Positions 45,606 to 64,000 of a stretch of DNA of 64,000 nucleotides are shown here, in pieces. Positions within the stretch are counted from its first letter, which is position 1; each line of letters starts with the position of its first letter. The DNA comes from a virus. The translations under genes were made by a program, and so were the position numbers. The notes under the pieces are model-generated. The model did not search any database. It saw only the letters and a program-made list of their open reading frames with translations, and was not told the origin of the DNA. Where the stretch lies: the UHGV virus genome UHGV-0382128; one strand, written 5' to 3'.

Positions 45606-45655
45606 AAAAGTAAAGCTACCCCTAGACCACACGGTCTAGGGGTAAACTATTTATT
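45606..45655. terminator. Bidirectional rho-independent terminator
   Basis: Stem cccctagacc / ggtctagggg (45619-45642) flanked by A-run and T-rich tract; between convergent genes. Confidence 0.75.
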
Positions 45656-46550
45656 TCCCACGATAAAATCCAGAGATGTAGCTTGGCGCTATCCATCGCC
45701 ATTCGCGCCAACGCATTTCTGACATTTTACCACACCATACACGCTTCCAATGAGCACGACGGATATGTGCTGCGCAATAAATCGCCAAACAAACCTCGTG
45801 TCCCTCCTTGCGTTGTTGTTCTATATCTTCCCATTGTACCGGACTTACGTCTAAAACGACCGCTTCACTACGTGGGCGAATCTCTGTATCAGGAACATAA
45901 CGAATGGTCCTCCCGCGAAATTCTTTCTTCTCACGTTCAGTTCGTTTAATTCGCGATGAAAGATATAGTCCGATATAGACGGCGTCGAGTAGTCGTTGAT
46001 TCTCCTTAACCGAAGTAAGGAGCGGCTTTAACTCCACGAAATCATCATTACTTTTATCGATCGTGTAAATCTCAAACTCCATGTATACCGACTCGTCATG
46101 TTCTTCGCATGACATCACAAAGAGAACTTCTTCACCTTCGTAAAGACGTCTTCCGATAAATAACGTGATTGGACATTCGTCGAGATTTACGGTAACCGAG
46201 AAAGTAAATGAAGGGATGGTTTCTATCCAGAAGTACGGGATATTTTTTAGTCTCTCAGTTTTTGCTAAGAGCGCCATCAGTTCTTCATCCGAGATGATTT
46301 CAACAGCAGCGTATTGCCATCCTAGTCCCAGGGACTGCTTAATCAGTCTGGGAATCTGTTCGGTAACGCCATATTCACGATAGGTCGGATCTTTAACTGG
46401 CATAAACGTTACGGGTATTTGTCGTTTATGCTCGTTAATGAACCGAATAAAACGGCACTGATCTAATCCGTGAATTGTTTGGTGTGCTTTTTCTATCTGT
46501 TCGCTCATGCGTCTTAGCGCTTTCCCGTAAAGTCTATTATTCGTTGTCAT
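45651..46550 (-). CDS. Paralog family A, member 1 (~299 aa; start revised to ATG at 46550)
   Basis: Track ORF 45651..46646 overlaps the upstream gene; the internal ATG (MTTNNRLYG...) is preceded by SD ggagca. C-terminal AAHIRRAHWKRVWCG...W.EWRWIAPSYISGF is shared with the neighbouring gene. Confidence 0.5.
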   Translation of the reverse strand: MTTNNRLYGKALRRMSEQIEKAHQTIHGLDQCRFIRFINEHKRQIPVTFMPVKDPTYREYGVTEQIPRLIKQSLGLGWQYAAVEIISDEELMALLAKTERLKNIPYFWIETIPSFTFSVTVNLDECPITLFIGRRLYEGEEVLFVMSCEEHDESVYMEFEIYTIDKSNDDFVELKPLLTSVKENQRLLDAVYIGLYLSSRIKRTEREKKEFRGRTIRYVPDTEIRPRSEAVVLDVSPVQWEDIEQQRKEGHEVCLAIYCAAHIRRAHWKRVWCGKMSEMRWREWRWIAPSYISGFYRGK

Positions 46551-46575
46551 TTTAATGCTCCTAAACACTTTTAGC

Positions 46576-47502
46576 TTAATTGTGGGGTACGTAGCCACGG
46601 ACAAATGTAGGTGGAATCCAACAAAGTTTTCTTTTTCTTTCCCCATCTCTTGGACCGACCCAATATCTGCGCCAGTGCGCGCGACGAATATGTGCGGCCT
46701 TGGCGTGTTTGATACCTTCCATGGTTTTCAAGTCGGTGTTAAATCCCTTTAGATATTTCACTTGTTCTGGTGTGATGTCTATTTTAACGTCACGTTCACG
46801 AGGTTTGATTTCGTGACTTATGCTACCATTCTTTTTGATTTCTTTGAACTTAATGTCATTGAAAGACCCTCTGAGATTGGGCGGGATTAGCGTACAGAGA
46901 AATATCAACGATATGGCGGTTTTGGCCAGTGATAACCATAACGTCTTCTCTTGTTCGGTCTGTACGCCAGTTGTATAATCGATTTCAACAAGCCCGTTTC
47001 CAACACTACATATCTCTAACGAGCAGGTGGCGATTGTGGTAACGCCTTCTGTTAACCCGTAATCAGTATTTGTAGCAATTATAATAAACCTTCTATTCCC
47101 ATTTTTTCGATAACCGAGAAAGAAAGTCTCATCTTCTTTACCTACATCGATTGCCACAGTCCAAGTAGGTATAAAGTCCAACCATTCTTCAGGGAATTTA
47201 CTGGGCATCTCAGTCTCGAAAACAAGTTCTCTAAGTGCTCGATCGGATATTAAGGAAGCACCACCGTATAGCCATCCGATCGCCAATGTTTGAGCGTGAA
47301 GGGAACGGGGATCTTTGAGACCTAACTCAGCATCGTAGGGTATAAAGGCATTAGTTAAATGCTTACGATTCTTTTTTATCCATTTCGAGACGGGATTTTC
47401 TTTTGTTTGGTTTTCTTCCATGACATTTTCTAGATGCTGACTCCCCATTTGTCTAAGGCAGTCTTTAATACCTTTTACTTTTTTACTTTTGTACAAATAC
47501 AT
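46576..47502 (-). CDS. Paralog family A, member 2 (308 aa)
   Basis: C-terminal AAHIRRAHWRRYWVG...LCWIPPTFVRGY and an internal block similar to the gene downstream; own SD aggaga after a terminator. Confidence 0.55.
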   Translation of the reverse strand: MYLYKSKKVKGIKDCLRQMGSQHLENVMEENQTKENPVSKWIKKNRKHLTNAFIPYDAELGLKDPRSLHAQTLAIGWLYGGASLISDRALRELVFETEMPSKFPEEWLDFIPTWTVAIDVGKEDETFFLGYRKNGNRRFIIIATNTDYGLTEGVTTIATCSLEICSVGNGLVEIDYTTGVQTEQEKTLWLSLAKTAISLIFLCTLIPPNLRGSFNDIKFKEIKKNGSISHEIKPRERDVKIDITPEQVKYLKGFNTDLKTMEGIKHAKAAHIRRAHWRRYWVGPRDGERKRKLCWIPPTFVRGYVPHN

Positions 47503-47560: not shown

Positions 47561-48046
47561 TCAATCATCTTCGGTAAGTTCAGGATGGTGGGTTTTTAAG
47601 TATCCCCATATCTGAATGGCGAGTGGCTCTTGATTTTCTAGAATCATCTGCTTTATTTTAGACTTCGACCCCCCATTCCAAATTTCCTTATAAAGTTTTC
47701 TCCATTCCTCACAAGCATAAAGAACGGTTGTTGTCGGATTTATAGGTAATGAACGATCGTTGTCTAAGAGTTTGACTGTACTATCTAGGATAATGTTAAG
47801 ACATGTTATTATATCTGCTTTTGACACGACAGACTTATCGGAGGGAAAGAAATTAGGCAGATGGCCCATTATAACGCTTTTATAGGTTATCGTAATAAAT
47901 TTACCCACGGCGGTTACCATCCATGGTTCAGCTTTTCTAGATACGTACAAATAAGATGGTAACTGTTTCTCTATTAAATCTATATGGTTTAAAAACAAGT
48001 GAGTAATAGCGCTATTACTCGGCTTAATGATGTTATTTATGTACAT
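47561..48046 (-). CDS. Paralog family B, member 1 (161 aa)
   Basis: Same length as the upstream gene and shared C-terminal block (...W.KLYKEIW...IQIWGYLKTHHPE vs ...WEKFYTRIW...LQLWEWLKANYP). Confidence 0.5.
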   Translation of the reverse strand: MYINNIIKPSNSAITHLFLNHIDLIEKQLPSYLYVSRKAEPWMVTAVGKFITITYKSVIMGHLPNFFPSDKSVVSKADIITCLNIILDSTVKLLDNDRSLPINPTTTVLYACEEWRKLYKEIWNGGSKSKIKQMILENQEPLAIQIWGYLKTHHPELTEDD

Positions 48047-48075: not shown

Positions 48076-48561
48076 CTATAGTGACACGTAAATAGGATAA
48101 TTAGCTTTCAGCCACTCCCATAGCTGTAAGGAAAGTAGGTTTTCATTACGTTCGATGATTTCCATGATTTCGTCCAAGTTAGAATCTTCAACCCAAATCC
48201 GGGTATAAAATTTTTCCCATTCCGGTTCTGTATAAGGGACTAGAGGAGTAGGGAATCGCTCCATGTGGTACGCATCAGAAACTTTCTTTAAGAACTCGTC
48301 GCGACCATGGCGTAGGCGTTGCCGAACGTCTGTTTCTGTTATGCGCTTGCTTGATAGATCGGAGAAGTCAAATAGGCTAAATATGTATTGCGTTAGACAC
48401 CGAGAAGAAAAGTAGGACGCGGCATAAGCCGCCATCCAAGGAGTGTCTGCAACCAACGGAGTCAACTTTTCTTCAATTTCTTTTCTTACACGTGTTTCGT
48501 TATTGAGAAATTCATGTACGATATCGCAGTTACGAATATCGAAGATATGATTTAAGTTCAT
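48076..48561 (-). CDS. Paralog family B, member 2 (161 aa)
   Basis: See family B member 1. Confidence 0.5.
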   Translation of the reverse strand: MNLNHIFDIRNCDIVHEFLNNETRVRKEIEEKLTPLVADTPWMAAYAASYFSSRCLTQYIFSLFDFSDLSSKRITETDVRQRLRHGRDEFLKKVSDAYHMERFPTPLVPYTEPEWEKFYTRIWVEDSNLDEIMEIIERNENLLSLQLWEWLKANYPIYVSL

Positions 48562-56409: not shown

Positions 56410-56455
56410 AAAAGATTACCCTACTCCTTCGGGAGTAGGGTAGCTTTTATTTTAA
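56410..56455. terminator. Bidirectional rho-independent terminator (CCCTACTCC family)
   Basis: Stem taccctactcc / ggagtagggta, loop ttcg, then gcttttatttt; between convergent genes. Confidence 0.8.
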
Positions 56456-57000
56456 ATGTCAACTTCTAGTTTACGGTAATCGATGACACCTTGAGCAATC
56501 ATAGCAGCAACATCGTTCCAAGTACGAAAAATGAAGTAAACTGTGTCTCCGTTTAAAAAGATGTTAGATTCTTTATCCGGGAAATCGTCTTCACTGAGGT
56601 AGTAGTAGGGTTTGTCGAATGGGAAGTCGCGCTCATCAGAGGAACCAAGTACCGCATAACGATTGCCACAATCAAACAGAATCTTCCAACCAGACATTTC
56701 ACTATTAGCGTCAATACGATCGACGATTTCAACGGTAATAGGAGAATGATCAAGAAAACTGATTGTAATATCTCCGTTATAACGCTTGAATCGCCAAATA
56801 TCTGTAGGTACGATTTCAGATGCCGCTATAAGGGAATAAAGTTGTGTTGATGTGATCTTTTTGTAAACGTTAGTTCCATCTCCAAAATGGTTATATAAGA
56901 AATTAGCCAGGAAATTTATATCCTTTAAACGTGTGCGGAAAACAGAACCACGACGAATACCGTAAGCCAGATGAGTTAAATATTCAGATGATGGAAACAT
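56452..57000 (-). CDS. Paralog family C, member 1 (182 aa)
   Basis: N-terminus MFPSSEYLTHLAYGIRRGSVF...FLANFLYNHFGDGT resembles that of the upstream gene (MTFPSEVIYTLANIFRRSHNF...VTADFLFNYLIGTD). Confidence 0.5.
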   Translation of the reverse strand: MFPSSEYLTHLAYGIRRGSVFRTRLKDINFLANFLYNHFGDGTNVYKKITSTQLYSLIAASEIVPTDIWRFKRYNGDITISFLDHSPITVEIVDRIDANSEMSGWKILFDCGNRYAVLGSSDERDFPFDKPYYYLSEDDFPDKESNIFLNGDTVYFIFRTWNDVAAMIAQGVIDYRKLEVDI

Positions 57001-57061: not shown

Positions 57062-58006
57062 TTATTTTTTGGTTTGGCCCAGCTTTTCAAGAACCAGTTC
57101 ACGAATGTACTTTTGAGTACGTTTCTTCGGCGGTAAAGCCATAAGGGTGTCAACGATTTCCTGGCCGCTGATAACCTTGCTGACGAGTTGCTGAACTTGG
57201 AAGAGTTCTGCTTCTTCGTCGCTAATTTCGTTAGCTTGGTCTTTCTGACACAACGCTTCTACCAGATCAGCTACGGATATTTCATTTTCGTCACCGGGGA
57301 AATCCAGGTTTAACGATTCGAAAACATCACGTTTAACGAGTACAGATTTCAGATCATCGTAGTTTTCACAAACGGCGACTTCTGTACCAGGTACCGTCGG
57401 TTCATTGTACTCAGCAAACAAATCTTCCATTACTTTCTGATCGTGCTCTACTTTCAAAGCGTGGAAGGTGTTGGAAGCCTTGGTTAAGACGTAACCAATT
57501 TGCTGCCAGCTACTCAGAATGAAGCAAAGCGTTTTTCCAGTTAGACCGATATTGCCCTGACGTGCGTCAAAAAAGATTTCTTCGGTGCGAGAAATCTGAC
57601 CCAGTTCGAAAAAGGTTTCTTTTTTGGCCGCGACGACTTCATACCGATTCTTACCCTGTTCTACAACAATTAACCAGTTACCAAGAATTTCGTGTTGGTA
57701 GTTTGATAGGGAGAGAGACTCGTTACCCACGAGTGGTTTAATGTCAATGGACGCCCGGCGCATACCCATTGAGAAGTTGAACTTAACCCCATTGTTATAC
57801 GCTGAGGCGTACTCGATCGGGATAATTTCTGAGACACGTTCAATATCCATAATTGTTTCCTGCGTAACACATGCAGGATCGGTACCAATTAGGTAATTAA
57901 ACAGAAAGTCGGCTGTAACGTCTGCCGATTTCCGAAAGATTGGGAAATTATGGCTGCGGCGGAAAATATTAGCCAGTGTATAGATTACTTCAGATGGAAA
58001 AGTCAT
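57062..58006 (-). CDS. Paralog family C, member 2 (314 aa) with acidic C-terminal extension
   Basis: See family C member 1; extra ~130 aa C-terminal region. Confidence 0.5.
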   Translation of the reverse strand: MTFPSEVIYTLANIFRRSHNFPIFRKSADVTADFLFNYLIGTDPACVTQETIMDIERVSEIIPIEYASAYNNGVKFNFSMGMRRASIDIKPLVGNESLSLSNYQHEILGNWLIVVEQGKNRYEVVAAKKETFFELGQISRTEEIFFDARQGNIGLTGKTLCFILSSWQQIGYVLTKASNTFHALKVEHDQKVMEDLFAEYNEPTVPGTEVAVCENYDDLKSVLVKRDVFESLNLDFPGDENEISVADLVEALCQKDQANEISDEEAELFQVQQLVSKVISGQEIVDTLMALPPKKRTQKYIRELVLEKLGQTKK

Positions 58007-58059: not shown

Positions 58060-58539
58060 TTAAAATAAAGGCAAGTTACGCCATTGTCCTACCGAGTAAA
58101 AAGCTTTTGGATGTTTACGGATATACGCTTTCGCTTCTTCTGGCAACCAACGGTCACCTACCAGTTTTTGTTGTGCAACAATTACTGCCATCAACAAATA
58201 CGGGTTTTTCGCACCGGGAAACTTTGCATTGGTTTCTAGCGCAATATCCAACATTGACGACCAGCCCAGTAATTTATGTTGCGCCGGTAAACGTTCTTCA
58301 ATATACATCAGCCACTTCATGATTTGTTTAGGCTTATACGGACAGGTATAATTCGCCCAACAGACCATGACGAACTTAATAGCCTTCGCAATCACCCATA
58401 CAGGGACAGTCACGAAAAGGCAGAAAATAGCCAACTGCGAGGCGGGCGCTTCGACAAAAGTAACCGCTACAAGAACCATACACAGTTCAAGTACCACAAA
58501 CCAAAAACGTGTCGGATAACGCCAAATGAATTTTATCAT
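58060..58539 (-). CDS. Membrane protein with two or three N-terminal TM helices (159 aa); holin-like candidate
   Basis: Hydrophobic FWFVVLELCMVLVAVTFV and LAIFCLFVTVPVWVIAKAIKFVMV; two genes upstream of the endolysin-like SLT gene. Confidence 0.4.
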   Translation of the reverse strand: MIKFIWRYPTRFWFVVLELCMVLVAVTFVEAPASQLAIFCLFVTVPVWVIAKAIKFVMVCWANYTCPYKPKQIMKWLMYIEERLPAQHKLLGWSSMLDIALETNAKFPGAKNPYLLMAVIVAQQKLVGDRWLPEEAKAYIRKHPKAFYSVGQWRNLPLF

Positions 58540-58605: not shown

Positions 58606-59115
58606 TTAGAAGAACGGCTGGTTTGGAATGACAGCGTACTCTAAAATGAACATGTGTTCTGGGGCGTCTTCTTTACGCCAGACTTTGTGTGTCGACACAA
58701 GTTTTTCCAGAATCGTTAAGAAACTGCGCTGGCAGTATGTGTTTTCACCAAGCAGTAGATTTTGAAGTTCTACAGTAGCGTCCATATACGCCTGTTTAAA
58801 GACTAAATTACGGTTATACTGCCCGGTAAAATTCCAAAGCAAGACTTTCCCTTCTTCGGTTTCTTTTACCGTTGGTCGTAAACCACAAATCCACAGTAAG
58901 GCAAGGTTGACGTTCCAGTCAAACTCTAAACCTTCTTCTTCGTCATCACCGAATGCTGTGGGTAAAGCATCGTAAAATTCGTGTTTCTCTGCGAATTCTT
59001 CATCCGACTTAATCTCGTCTTCGATACTGCTTCGGACGATACTGTAAACGTCTTTCGCGGTCAATTGTGCGGCTTTTGTAATGCCTTTATACCAATCGGT
59101 TACTACGATGCTCAA
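58606..59115 (-). CDS. Hypothetical protein (169 aa)
   Basis: ORF overlapping the SLT gene by 4 nt. Confidence 0.45.
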   Translation of the reverse strand: MSIVVTDWYKGITKAAQLTAKDVYSIVRSSIEDEIKSDEEFAEKHEFYDALPTAFGDDEEEGLEFDWNVNLALLWICGLRPTVKETEEGKVLLWNFTGQYNRNLVFKQAYMDATVELQNLLLGENTYCQRSFLTILEKLVSTHKVWRKEDAPEHMFILEYAVIPNQPFF

Positions 59116-59837
59116 AGGGTAACTCCTCTATTGATTGGAAAACTCGTGTTTATCGTATCCCAAATTCTACTAACTTCCGCCAGTTGAATCTGACGTGGTG
59201 TTTTCTTCGCAAACGCAAGCTGACGTGGGGCCGAGCCCACAACAACAGGCACATCGATTTTCGCGCTATAGAACGCGGCGTCTTTCATAAAGCCTGCCAT
59301 TTCTCGTTGTGCTGCTCGAGATTTGCTTTTGATTCGCGTGTGAGCGCCACTTTCACCCCAGTGGTAAGCTAACGCAATTTCAGCCATGGTGGGCTTGCGT
59401 TTGAGTCGTTTGGTTAACCCCCTCTCAAGATGTTTAACATACGCGGCAGCCAGCAAAACAGCATTACGCGGATTATATAAATCGGCGTTCTGACTAAGAC
59501 CTAATTCTTTTCCATAAAGCCTTAGCAGATTACGCTTGGTACTTGGAAGCATCTGTACCAGGCTGTGTGCTCGTGAGCTTTTGTTGTAAGCCTTGGGATC
59601 AAAACGTGATTCGCGATAAATCAGCGTAATCATCAGCTTAGGATCAACGCCTTGCTTTCGTGAGATTTCCACAATTAACGGGCTGACTTTTTCGAACCGA
59701 TGTTGGATTTGTGCAAACTCACGCTGATGCTTAGAATGTGGCGTTGACGTTGACGCCTGTGCGTTAAACGCGAAAAGTGTTACCAGTAAAAGAAAGAAGA
59801 TACGAAACATTTTGTTTCTCCAGTTGGATTTATACAT
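59112..59837 (-). CDS. Signal-peptide-bearing lytic transglycosylase (SLT domain), endolysin candidate (241 aa)
   Basis: N-terminal MFRIFFLLLVTLFAFNAQAS; SLT core LIYRESRFDPKAYNKSSRAHSLVQMLPST...LLAAAYVKHL (catalytic Glu-Ser and the SxxGxxQ block). Confidence 0.7.
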   Translation of the reverse strand: MYKSNWRNKMFRIFFLLLVTLFAFNAQASTSTPHSKHQREFAQIQHRFEKVSPLIVEISRKQGVDPKLMITLIYRESRFDPKAYNKSSRAHSLVQMLPSTKRNLLRLYGKELGLSQNADLYNPRNAVLLAAAYVKHLERGLTKRLKRKPTMAEIALAYHWGESGAHTRIKSKSRAAQREMAGFMKDAAFYSAKIDVPVVVGSAPRQLAFAKKTPRQIQLAEVSRIWDTINTSFPINRGVTL

Positions 59838-59910: not shown

Positions 59911-60471
59911 CTATTTAAAAGAGTTTGGAATTAATGACTCTGCTTCTTGGTACAACTTATCAGGTAAGTATAACGTGTAGCACTGCCTCCTCGGTTCAAG
60001 TTTTTTGTAAAGCCACAAAAAGATTTCTTGTCTTTCCCAGGAATCTAACCACCCATTTGCCATTCCCAGTGGAGGGATAGCAACGCTGGTATTCAGATCC
60101 TCAGCACAGTCTGCTAGTGCGCTAATGCCCGCAGTAACATAAGAAACCTGTGACTTTAAACGCCAATGGGTTTTCGTGGGGAGCAAGATACACTTTTCAT
60201 CAGAGTAAACGTAAACGCTTCCAATCTTAATTTCGTCTTCACGACACCGCTTACGATAATCCTGATAAAGGTTGGGGTAGCGTTCACGGCACGCCAGTGC
60301 AATACCGCGACCCATCGCTCCTACGCAGTTAATGGTAACGACTTTATAGTCTTCGGGTGCATTAAAAAGATCGTTACCAATTTCAGATTCTTTACGTACC
60401 GTTAACATAACGAAACGTCCGGAGTTGGTGTGTAGTATTAAAACGTGTACCGCCGATTGATAGCTCGACAA
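59911..60471 (-). CDS. Putative macro-domain (ADP-ribose binding/processing) protein (186 aa)
   Basis: VVTINCVGAMGRGIALACRERYP (glycine-rich loop as in macro domains) and later VAIPPLGMANGWL; by eye only. Confidence 0.45.
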   Translation of the reverse strand: MSSYQSAVHVLILHTNSGRFVMLTVRKESEIGNDLFNAPEDYKVVTINCVGAMGRGIALACRERYPNLYQDYRKRCREDEIKIGSVYVYSDEKCILLPTKTHWRLKSQVSYVTAGISALADCAEDLNTSVAIPPLGMANGWLDSWERQEIFLWLYKKLEPRRQCYTLYLPDKLYQEAESLIPNSFK

Positions 60472-60495
60472 GTATAGCGATATATGTTTTACCCA

Positions 60496-61132: not shown

Positions 61133-61582
61133 TTAGAATGTTTTGCTAAAATCGACCCACTCACGATCGTGCGAGTAAACCGCCTGATAGCCGCGTCGGA
61201 TGAAATACTCTTTTGCTTCTTTACATTTCGCATACATGCCAGTAACAATCTCACCGAAAACTTCATCAGCTGCAATTGCTTTGAAAATCTCTTTCATTAC
61301 ACCCCGTTGACGATAGTCTGGGAGCACGTATACCGAACGTATCTTAAGTGAACCGTTACGATTCCGATAACTACAGTATCCTACCGCGACATCATCCTGA
61401 TACACCAGAACTATGCAGTTACCTTCGATCAGCTGTCGCGCATTTAACTTCGGCACCGACGTTTTGATTTTCAGTAACGTGGCCTGGTGGTCTAAGTAAC
61501 GGTAGTGTAGTTTGAGTAAATCGGCAGCTTGTCGCTCACCGACTTTAGAAGATGCGTTCAACAAATAAATTTCCATTTGCAA
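61133..61582 (-). CDS. GNAT-family N-acetyltransferase (149 aa)
   Basis: Motif A-like IRSVYVLPDYRQRGVMKEIFKAI. Confidence 0.55.
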   Translation of the reverse strand: MQMEIYLLNASSKVGERQAADLLKLHYRYLDHQATLLKIKTSVPKLNARQLIEGNCIVLVYQDDVAVGYCSYRNRNGSLKIRSVYVLPDYRQRGVMKEIFKAIAADEVFGEIVTGMYAKCKEAKEYFIRRGYQAVYSHDREWVDFSKTF

Positions 61583-61903: not shown

Positions 61904-62083
61904 CTAATTCCGCCATTCGCATTCGCGTTGACGCCAAATTGAACCCCACGATAGTTTAATCAGATAAGATGAAACTACCCATAAAATCATCACCACACAA
62001 AACATGACATAAAGAACCGCTAGAATGGACATGAAGCCAAACCCTGCCGCATCCACAATACGACGGAACCAATCAGTTTGCAT
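61904..62083 (-). CDS. Small membrane protein (~59 aa)
   Basis: Track ORF 61904..62089 begins at a TTG; ATG at 62083 (MQTDWFRRIVD...) has SD aggag. TM FGFMSILAVLYVMFCVVMILWVV. Confidence 0.35.
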   Translation of the reverse strand: MQTDWFRRIVDAAGFGFMSILAVLYVMFCVVMILWVVSSYLIKLSWGSIWRQRECEWRN

Positions 62084-64000
62084 AAACAATTTTTACTCCT
62101 TCGTTATACACCGCAGGCAATGTCACTCCTTCCGGTTCGATGACACAGTACGATGCTTCATTAAGTTTAGAATGGACCTCAGCTTCGTGGGAAACTACCA
62201 AGAGTTGTGAAAATTCTCCCGAGTTTGCTAACGTTTTAATAAAGCCGACCAGGTTATTACGGTGTTCCTCGTCCATGCCTTCCGAAGGCTCATCCAAAAG
62301 CAACGGAAACTGATGCAACTTCAGCGCTTTGTACGCAGTCAGTCTGAACATCAGATTAAATATAGCACGCTGTGCCTTAGACCCTTTACGCACGTCAGGA
62401 ACAGGCTCAGGGTGCGTTTTTAGCTGGACAGGAAAAGTATAATCCAAATCGCCGTCAGTGAGATCACAGGGCATAACACGCATGGGGTACGTCCAGACCT
62501 GTTCGATATAACGCGTCATTAACTCTGTGATTCTAACGATAGCGTTGTAAAAATACTTTCTAAGTACACCCTTTTCTGGCGAGAAGGCTTGAATCATCAG
62601 TTTGTTATTGAACTGCTGGGCTTGTAAGTCAGCAAGTTCACGTTCCAAACTGTTGAGTTGGTTCAATTCATTTTCCATCTGACGATAACGCTCGCGTGCG
62701 GTTGTAAAAGCATCCAGCTTCCCTTCCCGCACTCGTAAGAGTTCCTCGACGACCGTATTTGTCAACGTAACCTTAACATCACTCTCTAACCGTTCGAATA
62801 ACGCACTGAAATCATCTACAGCACGTTTAACATTCACTAGATAGGTAAGTGTCGTGTTAGCCAGTTCGTGCTCTCTACGACGCATTGAGAGCATCTCTGT
62901 GGCTTTACCTAATCGCGACTGTTGGAAGGCGATTTTCTGTTGTAAAGCACCATCGACGTTACCAACGGCCGCTACGGCATCCTGCCATTCTTTTTCCGCT
63001 TTCACTAACCGTTGTCGGGTTTCATGGTACTCAATAGCAGAGTACAATTCACCGTCAAACGCTGCACATAGACTCCCGAACTGCTCGCGAGATTCTGTGA
63101 AAACGTTACGTTCTTGCAAACGCTTAAAGAACATGCTCAATATCGGGTCCTTTGAATACGTCAGCACAATCTCACGAACCTGCCGCATATAAGTTACATC
63201 AGATTCTAATTCAACACGATCGCGTAATAAGGTCTCTAGCTGTGTTTGAAGTTCCGTCCGTTGCTGCTGTTGACCACGAATCGATGACTCGAGTTCAGGT
63301 AAAGAACGCGTAACACCTGGCCGAAACTTAAACCGACACTGCGGACAATCCACTTCTGCCGTTTCTAAGTAGTGGTTACGTTCGTGATTTAAATTCTGTA
63401 AAACGTTCTCCACTCGCTGGAGTCTATCCCGTAATCCTGCGGTTTTTTGATCCATCACCAGAAGACGTTCTTCCAAAACATTGAGTTTCTCGGTTGAATG
63501 AATAGCGTCCAGTGTTGTTCCCAACCGTTGTCCCCAAACACGCGCATCGGTAGCCGCACGAAGTTGGTCTAAATTAACGTTATCGTTAAATAAACCTGGA
63601 AAGAGATGTTCGGTGTCCCACTTGGTAAGTAACTCACGTAAACGTGCCAGTGTGTTCTTGAGACCTTCGTGGTTCCGCATCAGGTAGTCTTGTCGTGTTG
63701 ACTCATCCATCAATAGCGATAAATCTTTATTCAACATCGATACCTCTGTTTCGGTAGAAACGACGGCTTCGCGGGCTGTCGCTTCATTTTGTCGGGCGGC
63801 CAGTATCTGTTCATCAGTAGGCAACCCACCACGATGTTGTAATATTGCGTCGATGGTTGGACCCAAACCGTTTAATAACGCTTGGATTGTTTCGATCGTG
63901 ACAGCACGATTTAATCCTGGCAACTGTTCGATTTCTCGGTTCAGTTCACGTAAATCCGATTCCAAACCTTTTAATCTCGTTGCTAATTGTTGTCGTTCTT
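62073..64000 (-). CDS. SbcC/Rad50-like recombination-repair ATPase, partial (N-terminus outside right edge)
   Basis: Long coiled-coil with zinc-hook-like CPQC (DCPQCRFKF), C-terminal FPLLLDEPSEGMD (Walker B/D-loop). Reading frame is open from 64000; the track start at 63965 is a TTG. Confidence 0.6.
   Translation of the reverse strand, partial: ERQQLATRLKGLESDLRELNREIEQLPGLNRAVTIETIQALLNGLGPTIDAILQHRGGLPTDEQILAARQNEATAREAVVSTETEVSMLNKDLSLLMDESTRQDYLMRNHEGLKNTLARLRELLTKWDTEHLFPGLFNDNVNLDQLRAATDARVWGQRLGTTLDAIHSTEKLNVLEERLLVMDQKTAGLRDRLQRVENVLQNLNHERNHYLETAEVDCPQCRFKFRPGVTRSLPELESSIRGQQQQRTELQTQLETLLRDRVELESDVTYMRQVREIVLTYSKDPILSMFFKRLQERNVFTESREQFGSLCAAFDGELYSAIEYHETRQRLVKAEKEWQDAVAAVGNVDGALQQKIAFQQSRLGKATEMLSMRRREHELANTTLTYLVNVKRAVDDFSALFERLESDVKVTLTNTVVEELLRVREGKLDAFTTARERYRQMENELNQLNSLERELADLQAQQFNNKLMIQAFSPEKGVLRKYFYNAIVRITELMTRYIEQVWTYPMRVMPCDLTDGDLDYTFPVQLKTHPEPVPDVRKGSKAQRAIFNLMFRLTAYKALKLHQFPLLLDEPSEGMDEEHRNNLVGFIKTLANSGEFSQLLVVSHEAEVHSKLNEASYCVIEPEGVTLPAVYNEGVKIVYAN

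What the first reader, a model, noticed from the sequence alone, without database searches (positions are those of the whole stretch)
59911..60471. Phage-encoded macro-domain protein
The product has the glycine-rich loop typical of macro domains (NCVGAMGRGIA) and a second conserved block (VAIPPLGMANGWL). Macro domains bind or hydrolyse ADP-ribose, so a phage copy could reverse ADP-ribosylation-based host defence or toxin activity, or process ADP-ribosylated nucleic acids or proteins made during infection.
Basis: partly seen in the sequence, partly recalled or inferred. Interest (0 to 1): 0.6.

Follow-up and report, generated by a model that had tools for sequence, protein, structure and literature searches.

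The report
Jumbo-phage DarG-like macrodomain (AdfM ortholog)
This gene is a real macro-domain enzyme of a nucleus-forming jumbo phage, and it belongs to a family (AdfM) shown in 2026 to strip ADP-ribose off phage DNA and so defeat the bacterial DarTG2 defence; the call is correct but ordinary.

Summary
The minus-strand ORF 59911..60471 encodes a macro-domain protein with both quoted motifs. The real gene is probably shorter: 59911..60408, 165 aa, from the ATG at M22. The 21-codon TTG extension is not conserved in relatives.

The protein is specifically a DarG2-type macrodomain. The only NCBIfam and PADLOC hits are DarG (E about 1e-35), covering the macro half only. The best solved-structure matches are the DarG macrodomains of M. 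tuberculosis and T. aquaticus. An AlphaFold model (pLDDT 93.9) superposes on them at TM 0.80-0.86. The mutation-sensitive Asn and catalytic Lys (TaqDarG N22/K80), the proposed thymine-stacking Trp and the ADP-ribose loops are kept.

The window is a SPN3US-like chimallivirus. The gene is the positional ortholog of SPN3US gp070 and of Erwinia phage Asesino gp217 (61% identity). It is 40% identical to PhiKZ gp104.

Morgan et al. (Cell Rep 2026, PMC13309987) named this family AdfM. It is imported into the phage nucleus, removes DarT2-made ADP-ribose from thymidine in ssDNA, and is needed for growth on DarTG2 hosts.

No activity was tested for this copy. Interest is low.

The parts
59911..60408 (-). 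AdfM-like gene: a stand-alone DarG2-type macrodomain of 165 aa plus stop, predicted pI 6.6 and 19.1 kDa.
60409..60471 (-). In-frame TTG extension of the maximal ORF (21 codons). It is probably untranslated leader, part of the 87-nt spacer after the upstream 122-aa gene.
   Evidence: The extension is not conserved: SPN3US has a stop there, and Asesino and all database homologues start at the ATG.
60298..60330 (-). Loop 1, NCVGAMGRGIA (residues 27-37). N27 corresponds to TaqDarG N22 and PhiKZ AdfM N23. The loop also carries the glycine-rich phosphate-binding motif.
   Evidence: N27, G30, M32, G33 and G35 are invariant in 30 sequences.
60163..60180 (-). PTKTHW (residues 77-82). T78 and K79 correspond to TaqDarG T79 and catalytic K80 (PhiKZ K78). 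W82 corresponds to TaqDarG W83, proposed to stack on the modified thymine.
   Evidence: T78 and K79 are invariant. Roles are taken from PMC5179494 and PMC13309987.
60046..60084 (-). Loop 2, VAIPPLGMANGWL (residues 109-121), which clasps the ADP-ribose diphosphate. G115, N118 and G119 correspond to TaqDarG G117, N120 and G121. W120 replaces the Gly found in DarG and PhiKZ AdfM and is typical of the SPN3US/Erwinia-phage clade.

Best explanation
The gene encodes an AdfM-type counter-defence enzyme: an orphan, antitoxin-like DarG2 macrodomain of a SPN3US-like nucleus-forming jumbo phage.

The proposed mechanism is inferred by orthology. Host DarT2 ADP-ribosylates thymidines in TNTC motifs of single-stranded phage DNA, which blocks replication and packaging. 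The phage enzyme is made during infection and concentrated in the phage nucleus. It binds the ADP-ribose in the macro-domain cleft formed by loops 27-37 and 112-121. K79, helped by N27, cleaves the thymine-ribose bond and restores unmodified DNA.

It lacks the DarT-binding C-terminal half of DarG. It should therefore act only by erasing the mark, not by sequestering the toxin.

Shown here: family, fold, active-site residues, architecture, and orthology and synteny with characterised members. Inferred: the enzymatic activity of this copy, its nuclear import, and the presence of DarTG2 in its hosts.
For: (1) Family. The only NCBIfam hit is antitoxin_DarG (1.7e-35, profile positions 7-155 of 338). 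The only PADLOC hit is DarG (2.2e-36, positions 7-151 of 329).

(2) Solved relatives. The best are the DarG macrodomains 5m3i and 5m31 (E 1e-25 and 2e-20), far ahead of Appr-1''-p phosphatases at E 0.02.

(3) Fold. The AF2 model has pLDDT 93.9 and pTM 0.90. The Foldseek top hits are 5m3e, 5m3i and 5m31 (E 4e-13 to 3e-12, TM 0.78-0.86, rmsd 1.7-2.2), followed by the DarTG complex 7omu and TARG1.

(4) Active site. N27 and K79 are invariant in 30 homologues including PhiKZ gp104. They align with TaqDarG N22 and K80, whose mutation impairs or abolishes activity, and with PhiKZ N23 and K78. T25, T78, H81, W82, G115, N118 and G119 are identical to the TaqDarG residues at those positions. Five of them are ADP-ribose contacts, and H81/W82 match H82/W83. 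R34 is a conservative match to K29.

(5) Orthology. BLASTP against PhiKZ gp104 (AdfM) gives 40% identity, E 2e-29. The reverse tblastn finds only this ORF in the window. Identity to Asesino gp217 (YP_009290835.1) is 61%, with the same SMC - GNAT - ... - macro - SLT transglycosylase gene order.

(6) Published function of the family. Asesino, PhiKZ and PhiPA3 AdfM localise to the phage nucleus. PhiKZ AdfM removes DarT2-made ADPr from DNA in vitro and rescues DarT2 toxicity. PhiKZ and PhiPA3 mutants lacking it lose 15-80-fold in progeny per cycle, and PhiKZ mutants lose 3-6 logs of titre, on DarTG2 hosts (PMC13309987).

(7) Phage type. The window carries phiKZ-type split RNAP beta subunits and is 86% identical in one of them to Seoulvirus phages. 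SPN3US encodes a chimallin homologue (PMC9365700).

(8) Targets. TNTC sites are abundant and not depleted: 2279 in 64 kb, z +1.25.
Against: No biochemistry or genetics exists for this copy or for any SPN3US-clade member other than localisation of the Asesino protein. Identity to the enzymatically tested PhiKZ protein is only 40%.

The clade carries Trp where DarG and PhiKZ AdfM have Gly in the diphosphate loop (GMANGW versus GxxNGG). It also has Ala at the TaqDarG Q34 contact, so substrate preference could differ.

Nuclear import signals are species-specific surface patches and cannot be read from sequence (PMC11087766). Whether the natural hosts carry DarTG2 is unknown. DarG/TARG1-type macrodomains can have more than one substrate.
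Confidence: 0.85

Rival explanations
1. The macrodomain erases a different ADP-ribose mark. Candidates are ADP-ribosylated RNA (CmdT-like or other RNA-targeting transferases), phosphate-linked ADPr on nucleic-acid ends, or ADP-ribosylated proteins made by the host or by a phage-encoded transferase. The same cleft and lysine would be used, as in TARG1.
For: TARG1, a protein and nucleic-acid de-ADP-ribosylase, is the next structural neighbour after DarG (PMC5179494). The clade-specific G-to-W change in loop 2 and the Q34-to-A change leave room for altered specificity. The survey by Iyer et al. notes that substrate ranges of phage macro domains are poorly defined (PMC9503650).
Against: DarG matches are many orders of magnitude better than any other macro family. 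The Trp proposed to stack on thymine is kept. No ADP-ribosyltransferase was detected among the 10 neighbouring proteins (Pfam and PADLOC scans), and none is annotated in the syntenic 50 kb of SPN3US. Family members were shown to act on DarT2-modified DNA.
Confidence: 0.08
2. It processes small ADP-ribose metabolites or signals. Candidates are Appr-1''-phosphate (the 'phosphatase' or 'Appr-1-p processing' annotation), O-acetyl-ADP-ribose (YmdB-like), or cyclic-ADPR-type immune signals such as those of Thoeris. It would thereby damp signalling or clean up RNA-repair by-products.
For: Database labels on homologues read 'phosphatase', 'Appr-1-p processing protein' and 'O-acetyl-ADP-ribose deacetylase (regulator of RNase III)'. 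[quoted passage not shown]
Against: These labels are inherited generic macro-domain names. Appr-1''-p phosphatase structures match only at E 0.02-0.05, against 1e-25 for DarG. The catalytic Lys of the TARG1/DarG mechanism is invariant. Direct experiments on family members show DNA de-ADP-ribosylation and a DarTG2-specific phenotype.
Confidence: 0.05
3. It is a non-catalytic ADP-ribose reader or decoy, or a decaying remnant, with no enzymatic role.
For: None specific. Some macro domains are binding modules only.
Against: The frame is intact and all catalytic and binding residues are invariant across homologues down to 33% identity. The fold is predicted with high confidence. The syntenic position is conserved across genera.
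Confidence: 0.02

Closest known systems
AdfM (anti-DarT factor macro) of chimalliviruses: PhiKZ gp104, PhiPA3 gp108, Goslar gp83, Asesino gp217 (Morgan et al., Cell Rep 2026, PMC13309987)
   Same: It is a stand-alone DarG2-like macrodomain of about 160-166 aa encoded by a phiKZ-like or SPN3US-like jumbo phage. The Asn and Lys active-site residues are kept. Identity is 61% to Asesino gp217, at the same genomic position, and 40% to PhiKZ gp104.
   Different: It comes from an uncultivated SPN3US-like phage (Logan assembly of SRR5831601). It is only 57-61% identical to the nearest GenBank phage proteins. It shares the SPN3US/Erwinia-clade GMANGW loop and the C-terminal YLPxxLxxEA tail, both absent from PhiKZ gp104. 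Activity and localisation are untested.
DarG2 antitoxin of the DarTG2 toxin-antitoxin / phage-defence system (TaqDarG 5M31/5M3E, MtbDarG 5M3I)
   Same: The macrodomain fold matches (TM 0.8-0.86, 32-35% identity). So do the ADP-ribose-binding loops, catalytic K80, N22 and W83. The macrodomain alone is sufficient as antitoxin (PMC5179494).
   Different: There is no C-terminal DarT-binding domain: only profile positions 7-155 of 338 are matched, and the score of 123 bits is below the NCBIfam cut-off of 250. No adjacent darT was found among the ten neighbouring proteins scanned. The gene is encoded by a virus, not by a defence island.
Other phage anti-DarT factors: AdfA (T-even phages), AdfB (ICP1 gp145, PMC11481870) and orphan NADAR antitoxin-like enzymes against DarTG1 (PMC11825919)
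   Same: All share the strategic role of a phage-encoded neutraliser of DarT. The NADAR case follows the same 'orphan antitoxin enzyme' logic.
   Different: AdfB is a 77-aa protein that binds DarT directly and is not an eraser. NADAR is an unrelated fold that acts on guanine-ADPr made by DarT1. No sequence relationship to either was looked for here.
TARG1 (C6orf130) terminal ADP-ribose glycohydrolase
   Same: It belongs to the same macro subfamily fold, with the catalytic lysine at the equivalent position.
   Different: Identity is only 19-21%. TARG1 uses D125, where this protein has Gly. W82 replaces TARG1 A90. TARG1 is known as a de-ADP-ribosylase of protein glutamate; the DarG2-type macrodomains that AdfM most resembles act on ADP-ribosylated DNA.

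Membership tests
Macro domain superfamily (Pfam PF01661) | Profile match above the curated threshold | tested here: met
   E 3.1e-6, 27.6 bits against a cut-off of 22, covering residues 46-137 of the 186-aa ORF.
Macro domain superfamily (Pfam PF01661) | Three-layer alpha/beta/alpha macro fold with a mixed beta-sheet | tested here: met
   The AF2 model has pLDDT 93.9. 160 PDB macro-domain chains match at E <= 1e-3, and the top TM scores are 0.78-0.86.
AdfM (chimallivirus anti-DarT factor macro) | DarG2-type macrodomain, closer to DarG than to other macro families | tested here: met
   DarG is the only NCBIfam and PADLOC hit. DarG macrodomains are the top sequence and fold matches in the PDB.
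AdfM (chimallivirus anti-DarT factor macro) | Homology and orthology to the characterised members (PhiKZ gp104, Asesino gp217) | tested here: met
   40% identity and E 2e-29 to gp104, and this ORF is the sole match in the window in the reverse search. 61% identity to Asesino gp217 with conserved gene order.
AdfM (chimallivirus anti-DarT factor macro) | Active-site Asn (PhiKZ N23) and Lys (PhiKZ K78) conserved | tested here: met
   N27 and K79 are invariant in the 30-sequence alignment that includes gp104.
AdfM (chimallivirus anti-DarT factor macro) | Stand-alone protein without the DarT-binding domain | tested here: met
   The protein is 165 aa. The DarG profiles are matched only over their N-terminal halves.
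AdfM (chimallivirus anti-DarT factor macro) | Encoded by a nucleus-forming (chimallin-encoding) jumbo phage | tested here: inconclusive
   The window has phiKZ-type split RNAP beta genes and is syntenic with SPN3US and Asesino, with 86% aa identity in RNAP beta. SPN3US encodes a chimallin homologue and Asesino is described as nucleus-forming. The chimallin gene itself was not looked for, in the window or elsewhere on the phage.
AdfM (chimallivirus anti-DarT factor macro) | Import into the phage nucleus (PicA/PIC pathway) | not testable with these tools
   The import determinant is a species-specific folded surface patch with no sequence signature (PMC11087766).
AdfM (chimallivirus anti-DarT factor macro) | Removes DarT2-made ADP-ribose from thymidine in ssDNA and protects the phage from DarTG2 | not testable with these tools
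   Shown for PhiKZ and PhiPA3 proteins only. Inferred here from conserved residues.
DarG antitoxin (type II TA, NCBIfam NF048014) | Full-length architecture: macrodomain plus C-terminal DarT-binding domain, scoring above the equivalog cut-off | tested here: not met
   122.9 bits against a cut-off of 250, with only profile positions 7-155 of 338 aligned.
DarG antitoxin (type II TA, NCBIfam NF048014) | Adjacent darT toxin gene | tested here: not met
   PADLOC and Pfam scans of the ten neighbouring proteins found no DarT or other ADP-ribosyltransferase. None is annotated in the syntenic SPN3US regions.

The most novel reading that the evidence does not exclude
The SPN3US/Erwinia-phage branch of AdfM may have shifted its substrate range. 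The branch is marked by Trp in place of the second Gly of the diphosphate-clasping loop (GMANGW), Ala at the Q34 contact, and a conserved C-terminal YLPxxLxxEA helix. It could act on another ADP-ribose-nucleic-acid linkage or another DarT-like family found in enterobacteria, rather than simply copying PhiKZ AdfM.
Probability: 0.08. Interest if true: 0.45.

Novelty: already known. Interest (0 to 1): 0.15.

Why it matters
The gene marks this uncultivated Salmonella/Escherichia-type jumbo phage as carrying the published AdfM counter-defence. It therefore predicts resistance to DarTG2-bearing hosts, which is useful for annotation and for judging phage host range. It adds one more sequence to a family whose mechanism and biology were already described (PMC13309987). 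It opens no new question by itself.

Tried and rejected
- **Nucleotide match to GenBank phages:** a megablast of 3 kb around the gene found nothing. The phage is related to known ones only at protein level.
- **The TTG-initiated 186-aa reading:** rejected. The extension is not conserved, and SPN3US has a stop there.
- **A split DarG, or a phage darT or other ADP-ribosyltransferase next door:** PADLOC and Pfam scans of ten neighbours found none. The only PADLOC hit was the SMC-like ATPase to LmuB. None is annotated in syntenic SPN3US.
- **Host-type promoters or terminators around the gene:** counts were about as expected by chance, and none flanks the gene convincingly.
- **Avoidance of the DarT2 target motif TNTC in the window:** not seen overall, z +1.25. 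Individual variants go both ways: TATC is enriched, TGTC and TCTC are mildly depleted. Nothing can be concluded from this.
- **tRNA and Rfam scans of the window:** both empty.
- **'Phosphatase', 'Appr-1-p processing' and 'RNase III inhibitor' labels on homologues:** treated as inherited generic names, not evidence.

Full report
**Observation.** The minus strand of 59911..60471 is an open frame of 186 codons that starts at a TTG. NCVGAMGRGIA lies at 60298..60330 and VAIPPLGMANGWL at 60046..60084. The macro-domain call is statistically sound:
- Pfam Macro (PF01661): E 3.1e-6, 27.6 bits, above the gathering score of 22.
- PHROG 335: E 1.3e-35.
- Macro-domain chains in the PDB: as low as E 1.1e-25.

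**Gene limits.** The TTG start is very probably not used, for four reasons:
- The full-length homologues recovered from public data are 158-174 aa, nearly all 161-166 aa.
- The gene caller on the contig that holds this exact sequence called 165 aa.
- In SPN3US an in-frame stop codon sits immediately before the ATG.
- In Asesino the annotated gp217 starts at the equivalent ATG, with an unrelated upstream sequence.

The gene is therefore 59911..60408 (ATG at 60406-60408). The product is 165 aa, 19.1 kDa. It sits 87 nt downstream of the 122-aa gene that is the counterpart of SPN3US gp072.

**Which kind of macro domain.** The protein is specifically of the DarG2 type.
- *Curated libraries.* Each gives one hit. 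NCBIfam gives 'antitoxin DNA ADP-ribosyl glycohydrolase DarG' (E 1.7e-35). PADLOC gives DarG (E 2.2e-36). In both, only the N-terminal macro half of the roughly 330-residue profile is aligned. The NCBIfam score (123 bits) is well below the equivalog cut-off of 250.
- *Solved structures by sequence.* The best matches are the DarG macrodomains of M. tuberculosis (5m3i) and T. aquaticus (5m31/5m3e), then the Thermosipho DarTG complex 7omu. Appr-1''-p phosphatases appear only at E 0.02-0.05.
- *Fold.* An AlphaFold2 model built on 29 homologues is confident (mean pLDDT 93.9, pTM 0.90). Foldseek ranks 5m3e, 5m3i and 5m31 first (E 4e-13 to 3e-12, TM 0.78-0.86, rmsd 1.7-2.2 A), then 7omu. TARG1 and viral nsP3 macro domains follow.
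- *Wider family.* A profile search of 1.8 billion representative proteins finds 14,725 relatives. Most of the best are about 340 aa with the match at their N-terminus, which is the DarG architecture.

**Active site.** Residue roles below come from TaqDarG (PMC5179494). The HMMER alignment was used for the mapping. Its chain numbering is offset by 10 from the published numbering, and this offset is consistent for every residue checked.
- N22 maps to N27.
- K80 (catalytic) maps to K79.
- T79 maps to T78, T20 to T25, and K29 to R34.
- H82/W83 map to H81/W82. W83 is the proposed thymine-stacking residue.
- G117, N120 and G121 map to G115, N118 and G119.

N27, G30, M32, G33, G35, T78, K79, PPLG112-115 and G119 are invariant in an alignment of 30 sequences that includes PhiKZ gp104.

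The differences are as follows. A117 replaces Taq G119, but the active PhiKZ enzyme also has Ala there. A39 replaces Q34. W120 replaces Taq G122, and this Trp is typical of the SPN3US/Erwinia-phage clade.

**Genomic setting.**
- *Phage type.* The window is part of a jumbo phage of the phiKZ/SPN3US kind. It encodes split multisubunit RNA polymerase beta subunits, a tail sheath, a 2374-aa virion protein with a transglycosylase domain, a UvsX-like recombinase and an RNase H-like nuclease.
- *Nearest relatives.* One RNAP beta subunit is 86% identical to Seoulvirus (SPN3US-like) Salmonella phages. There is no nucleotide-level match to GenBank phages.
- *Source.* The exact protein is on a 68-kb contig assembled from SRR5831601.
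- *Synteny.* The gene order SMC-like ATPase - GNAT acetyltransferase - small genes - macro - SLT transglycosylase is the same in SPN3US and Asesino.
- *Distribution.* tblastn finds the protein in 264 phage records, mainly Pseudomonas, Erwinia, Escherichia, Salmonella and Serratia phages. The best identities are 57-61%.
- *Nucleus formation.* SPN3US encodes a chimallin homologue (PMC9365700), and Asesino is described as nucleus-forming (reference list of PMC13309987).

**What is known.** Morgan et al. (Cell Rep 2026, PMC13309987) studied exactly this protein family and named it AdfM, anti-DarT factor macro.
- PhiKZ gp104, PhiPA3 gp108 and Asesino gp217 localise to the phage nucleus.
- PhiKZ AdfM removes ADP-ribose placed by DarT2 on the second T of TNTC in DNA. 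The N23A mutation weakens this activity.
- It fully rescues DarT2 toxicity in E. coli.
- PhiKZ mutants lacking it lose 3-6 logs of titre on DarTG2-expressing P. aeruginosa, and PhiKZ and PhiPA3 mutants lose 15-80-fold in progeny per cycle.
- Phage DNA becomes ADP-ribosylated, and replication and packaging fail.

The window protein is 40% identical to gp104 (E 2e-29), and gp104 finds only this ORF in the window. It is 61% identical to Asesino gp217 (YP_009290835.1) and is its positional ortholog. gp104 was earlier used as the model cargo of the PicA import pathway. Its import signal is a species-specific surface region, so import cannot be predicted here (PMC11087766).

**Mechanism proposed.** This is inferred by orthology. 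The enzyme is an orphan, antitoxin-like eraser. DarT2 that reaches replicating phage DNA ADP-ribosylates thymidines in ssDNA. AdfM binds the ADP-ribose between loops 27-37 and 112-121. K79 attacks the ribose C1'', with N27 positioning the substrate and W82 probably stacking on thymine. Unmodified DNA is restored.

The protein lacks the DarT-binding half of DarG, and no darT lies among the ten neighbouring proteins scanned. It is therefore not a toxin-antitoxin module, and it cannot sequester DarT as full-length DarG or ICP1 AdfB do. TNTC sites are plentiful in the window and not depleted overall. This is compatible with reliance on an eraser but proves nothing.

**Rivals.** I judge three alternatives unlikely:
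- a different macromolecular substrate (RNA, DNA ends or protein);
- small-molecule ADPr derivatives, as the old 'Appr-1-p processing' or 'phosphatase' labels suggest and as argued generally for phage macro domains in PMC9503650;
- a non-catalytic reader.

The reasons are the strength of the DarG-specific matches, the invariant catalytic residues and the direct experiments on orthologues. A secondary substrate is not excluded. The clade-specific Trp in loop 2 and the C-terminal YLPxxLxxEA helix are the only features that might hint at a functional shift.

**Verdict.** This is a routine ortholog of a published family, so novelty is 'already known' and interest is low.

Noticed in passing
window 62073..63965 (-), running off the window end; full length 834 aa on L003 3946..6450: A phage-encoded SMC/Rad50-like ATPase, the counterpart of the SPN3US 'putative SMC domain-containing protein'. 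It matches the Lamassu defence component LmuB in PADLOC (E 9e-17) but only weakly matches Pfam SMC_N. A Lamassu-like SMC in a jumbo phage could be a repair factor or a decoy.
   Followed up: partly
window 45651..46646 / 46576..47502; 47561..48046 / 48076..48561; 56452..57000 / 57062..58006 (all -): Three pairs of adjacent diverged paralogues (23-27% identity, E 4e-8 to 3e-18). None has a known function. The third pair lies 3 kb from the macro gene and has no Pfam or PADLOC hit.
   Followed up: partly
window 60409..60495 compared with L001 5856..6104 (SPN3US gp071): SPN3US has an 82-aa gene (gp071) between the gp072 counterpart and the macro gene, overlapping the start of the macro gene. The window has only an 87-nt spacer there, so this small gene is missing or replaced.
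   Followed up: partly
window 59112..59837 (-): Directly downstream is an SLT-domain lytic transglycosylase (Pfam SLT, E 5e-14). It has an N-terminal hydrophobic, signal-like segment (by eye, no predictor was run) and is conserved next to the macro gene in SPN3US and Asesino.
   Followed up: partly
window 61133..61582 (-): A GNAT-family acetyltransferase (Pfam E 8e-8) is conserved at the same position in SPN3US and Asesino. Its substrate is unknown.
   Followed up: no
window 58060..58539 (-): A 159-aa protein with a hydrophobic N-terminal half that looks like a membrane protein. It has no family hit.
   Followed up: no
whole window: The tetranucleotide TATC/GATA is strongly over-represented relative to a first-order Markov expectation (601 against 439, z +7.3), while TGTC/GACA is under-represented (z -4.5). 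This is unexplained and could reflect codon or promoter usage.
   Followed up: no
whole window: The 64 kb holds no tRNA genes and no Rfam family above threshold.
   Followed up: yes
L003 455..916 (outside the window, same contig): A 153-aa protein with a Pfam YfjT (PF27224) hit lies beyond the window end, upstream of the SMC gene.
   Followed up: no
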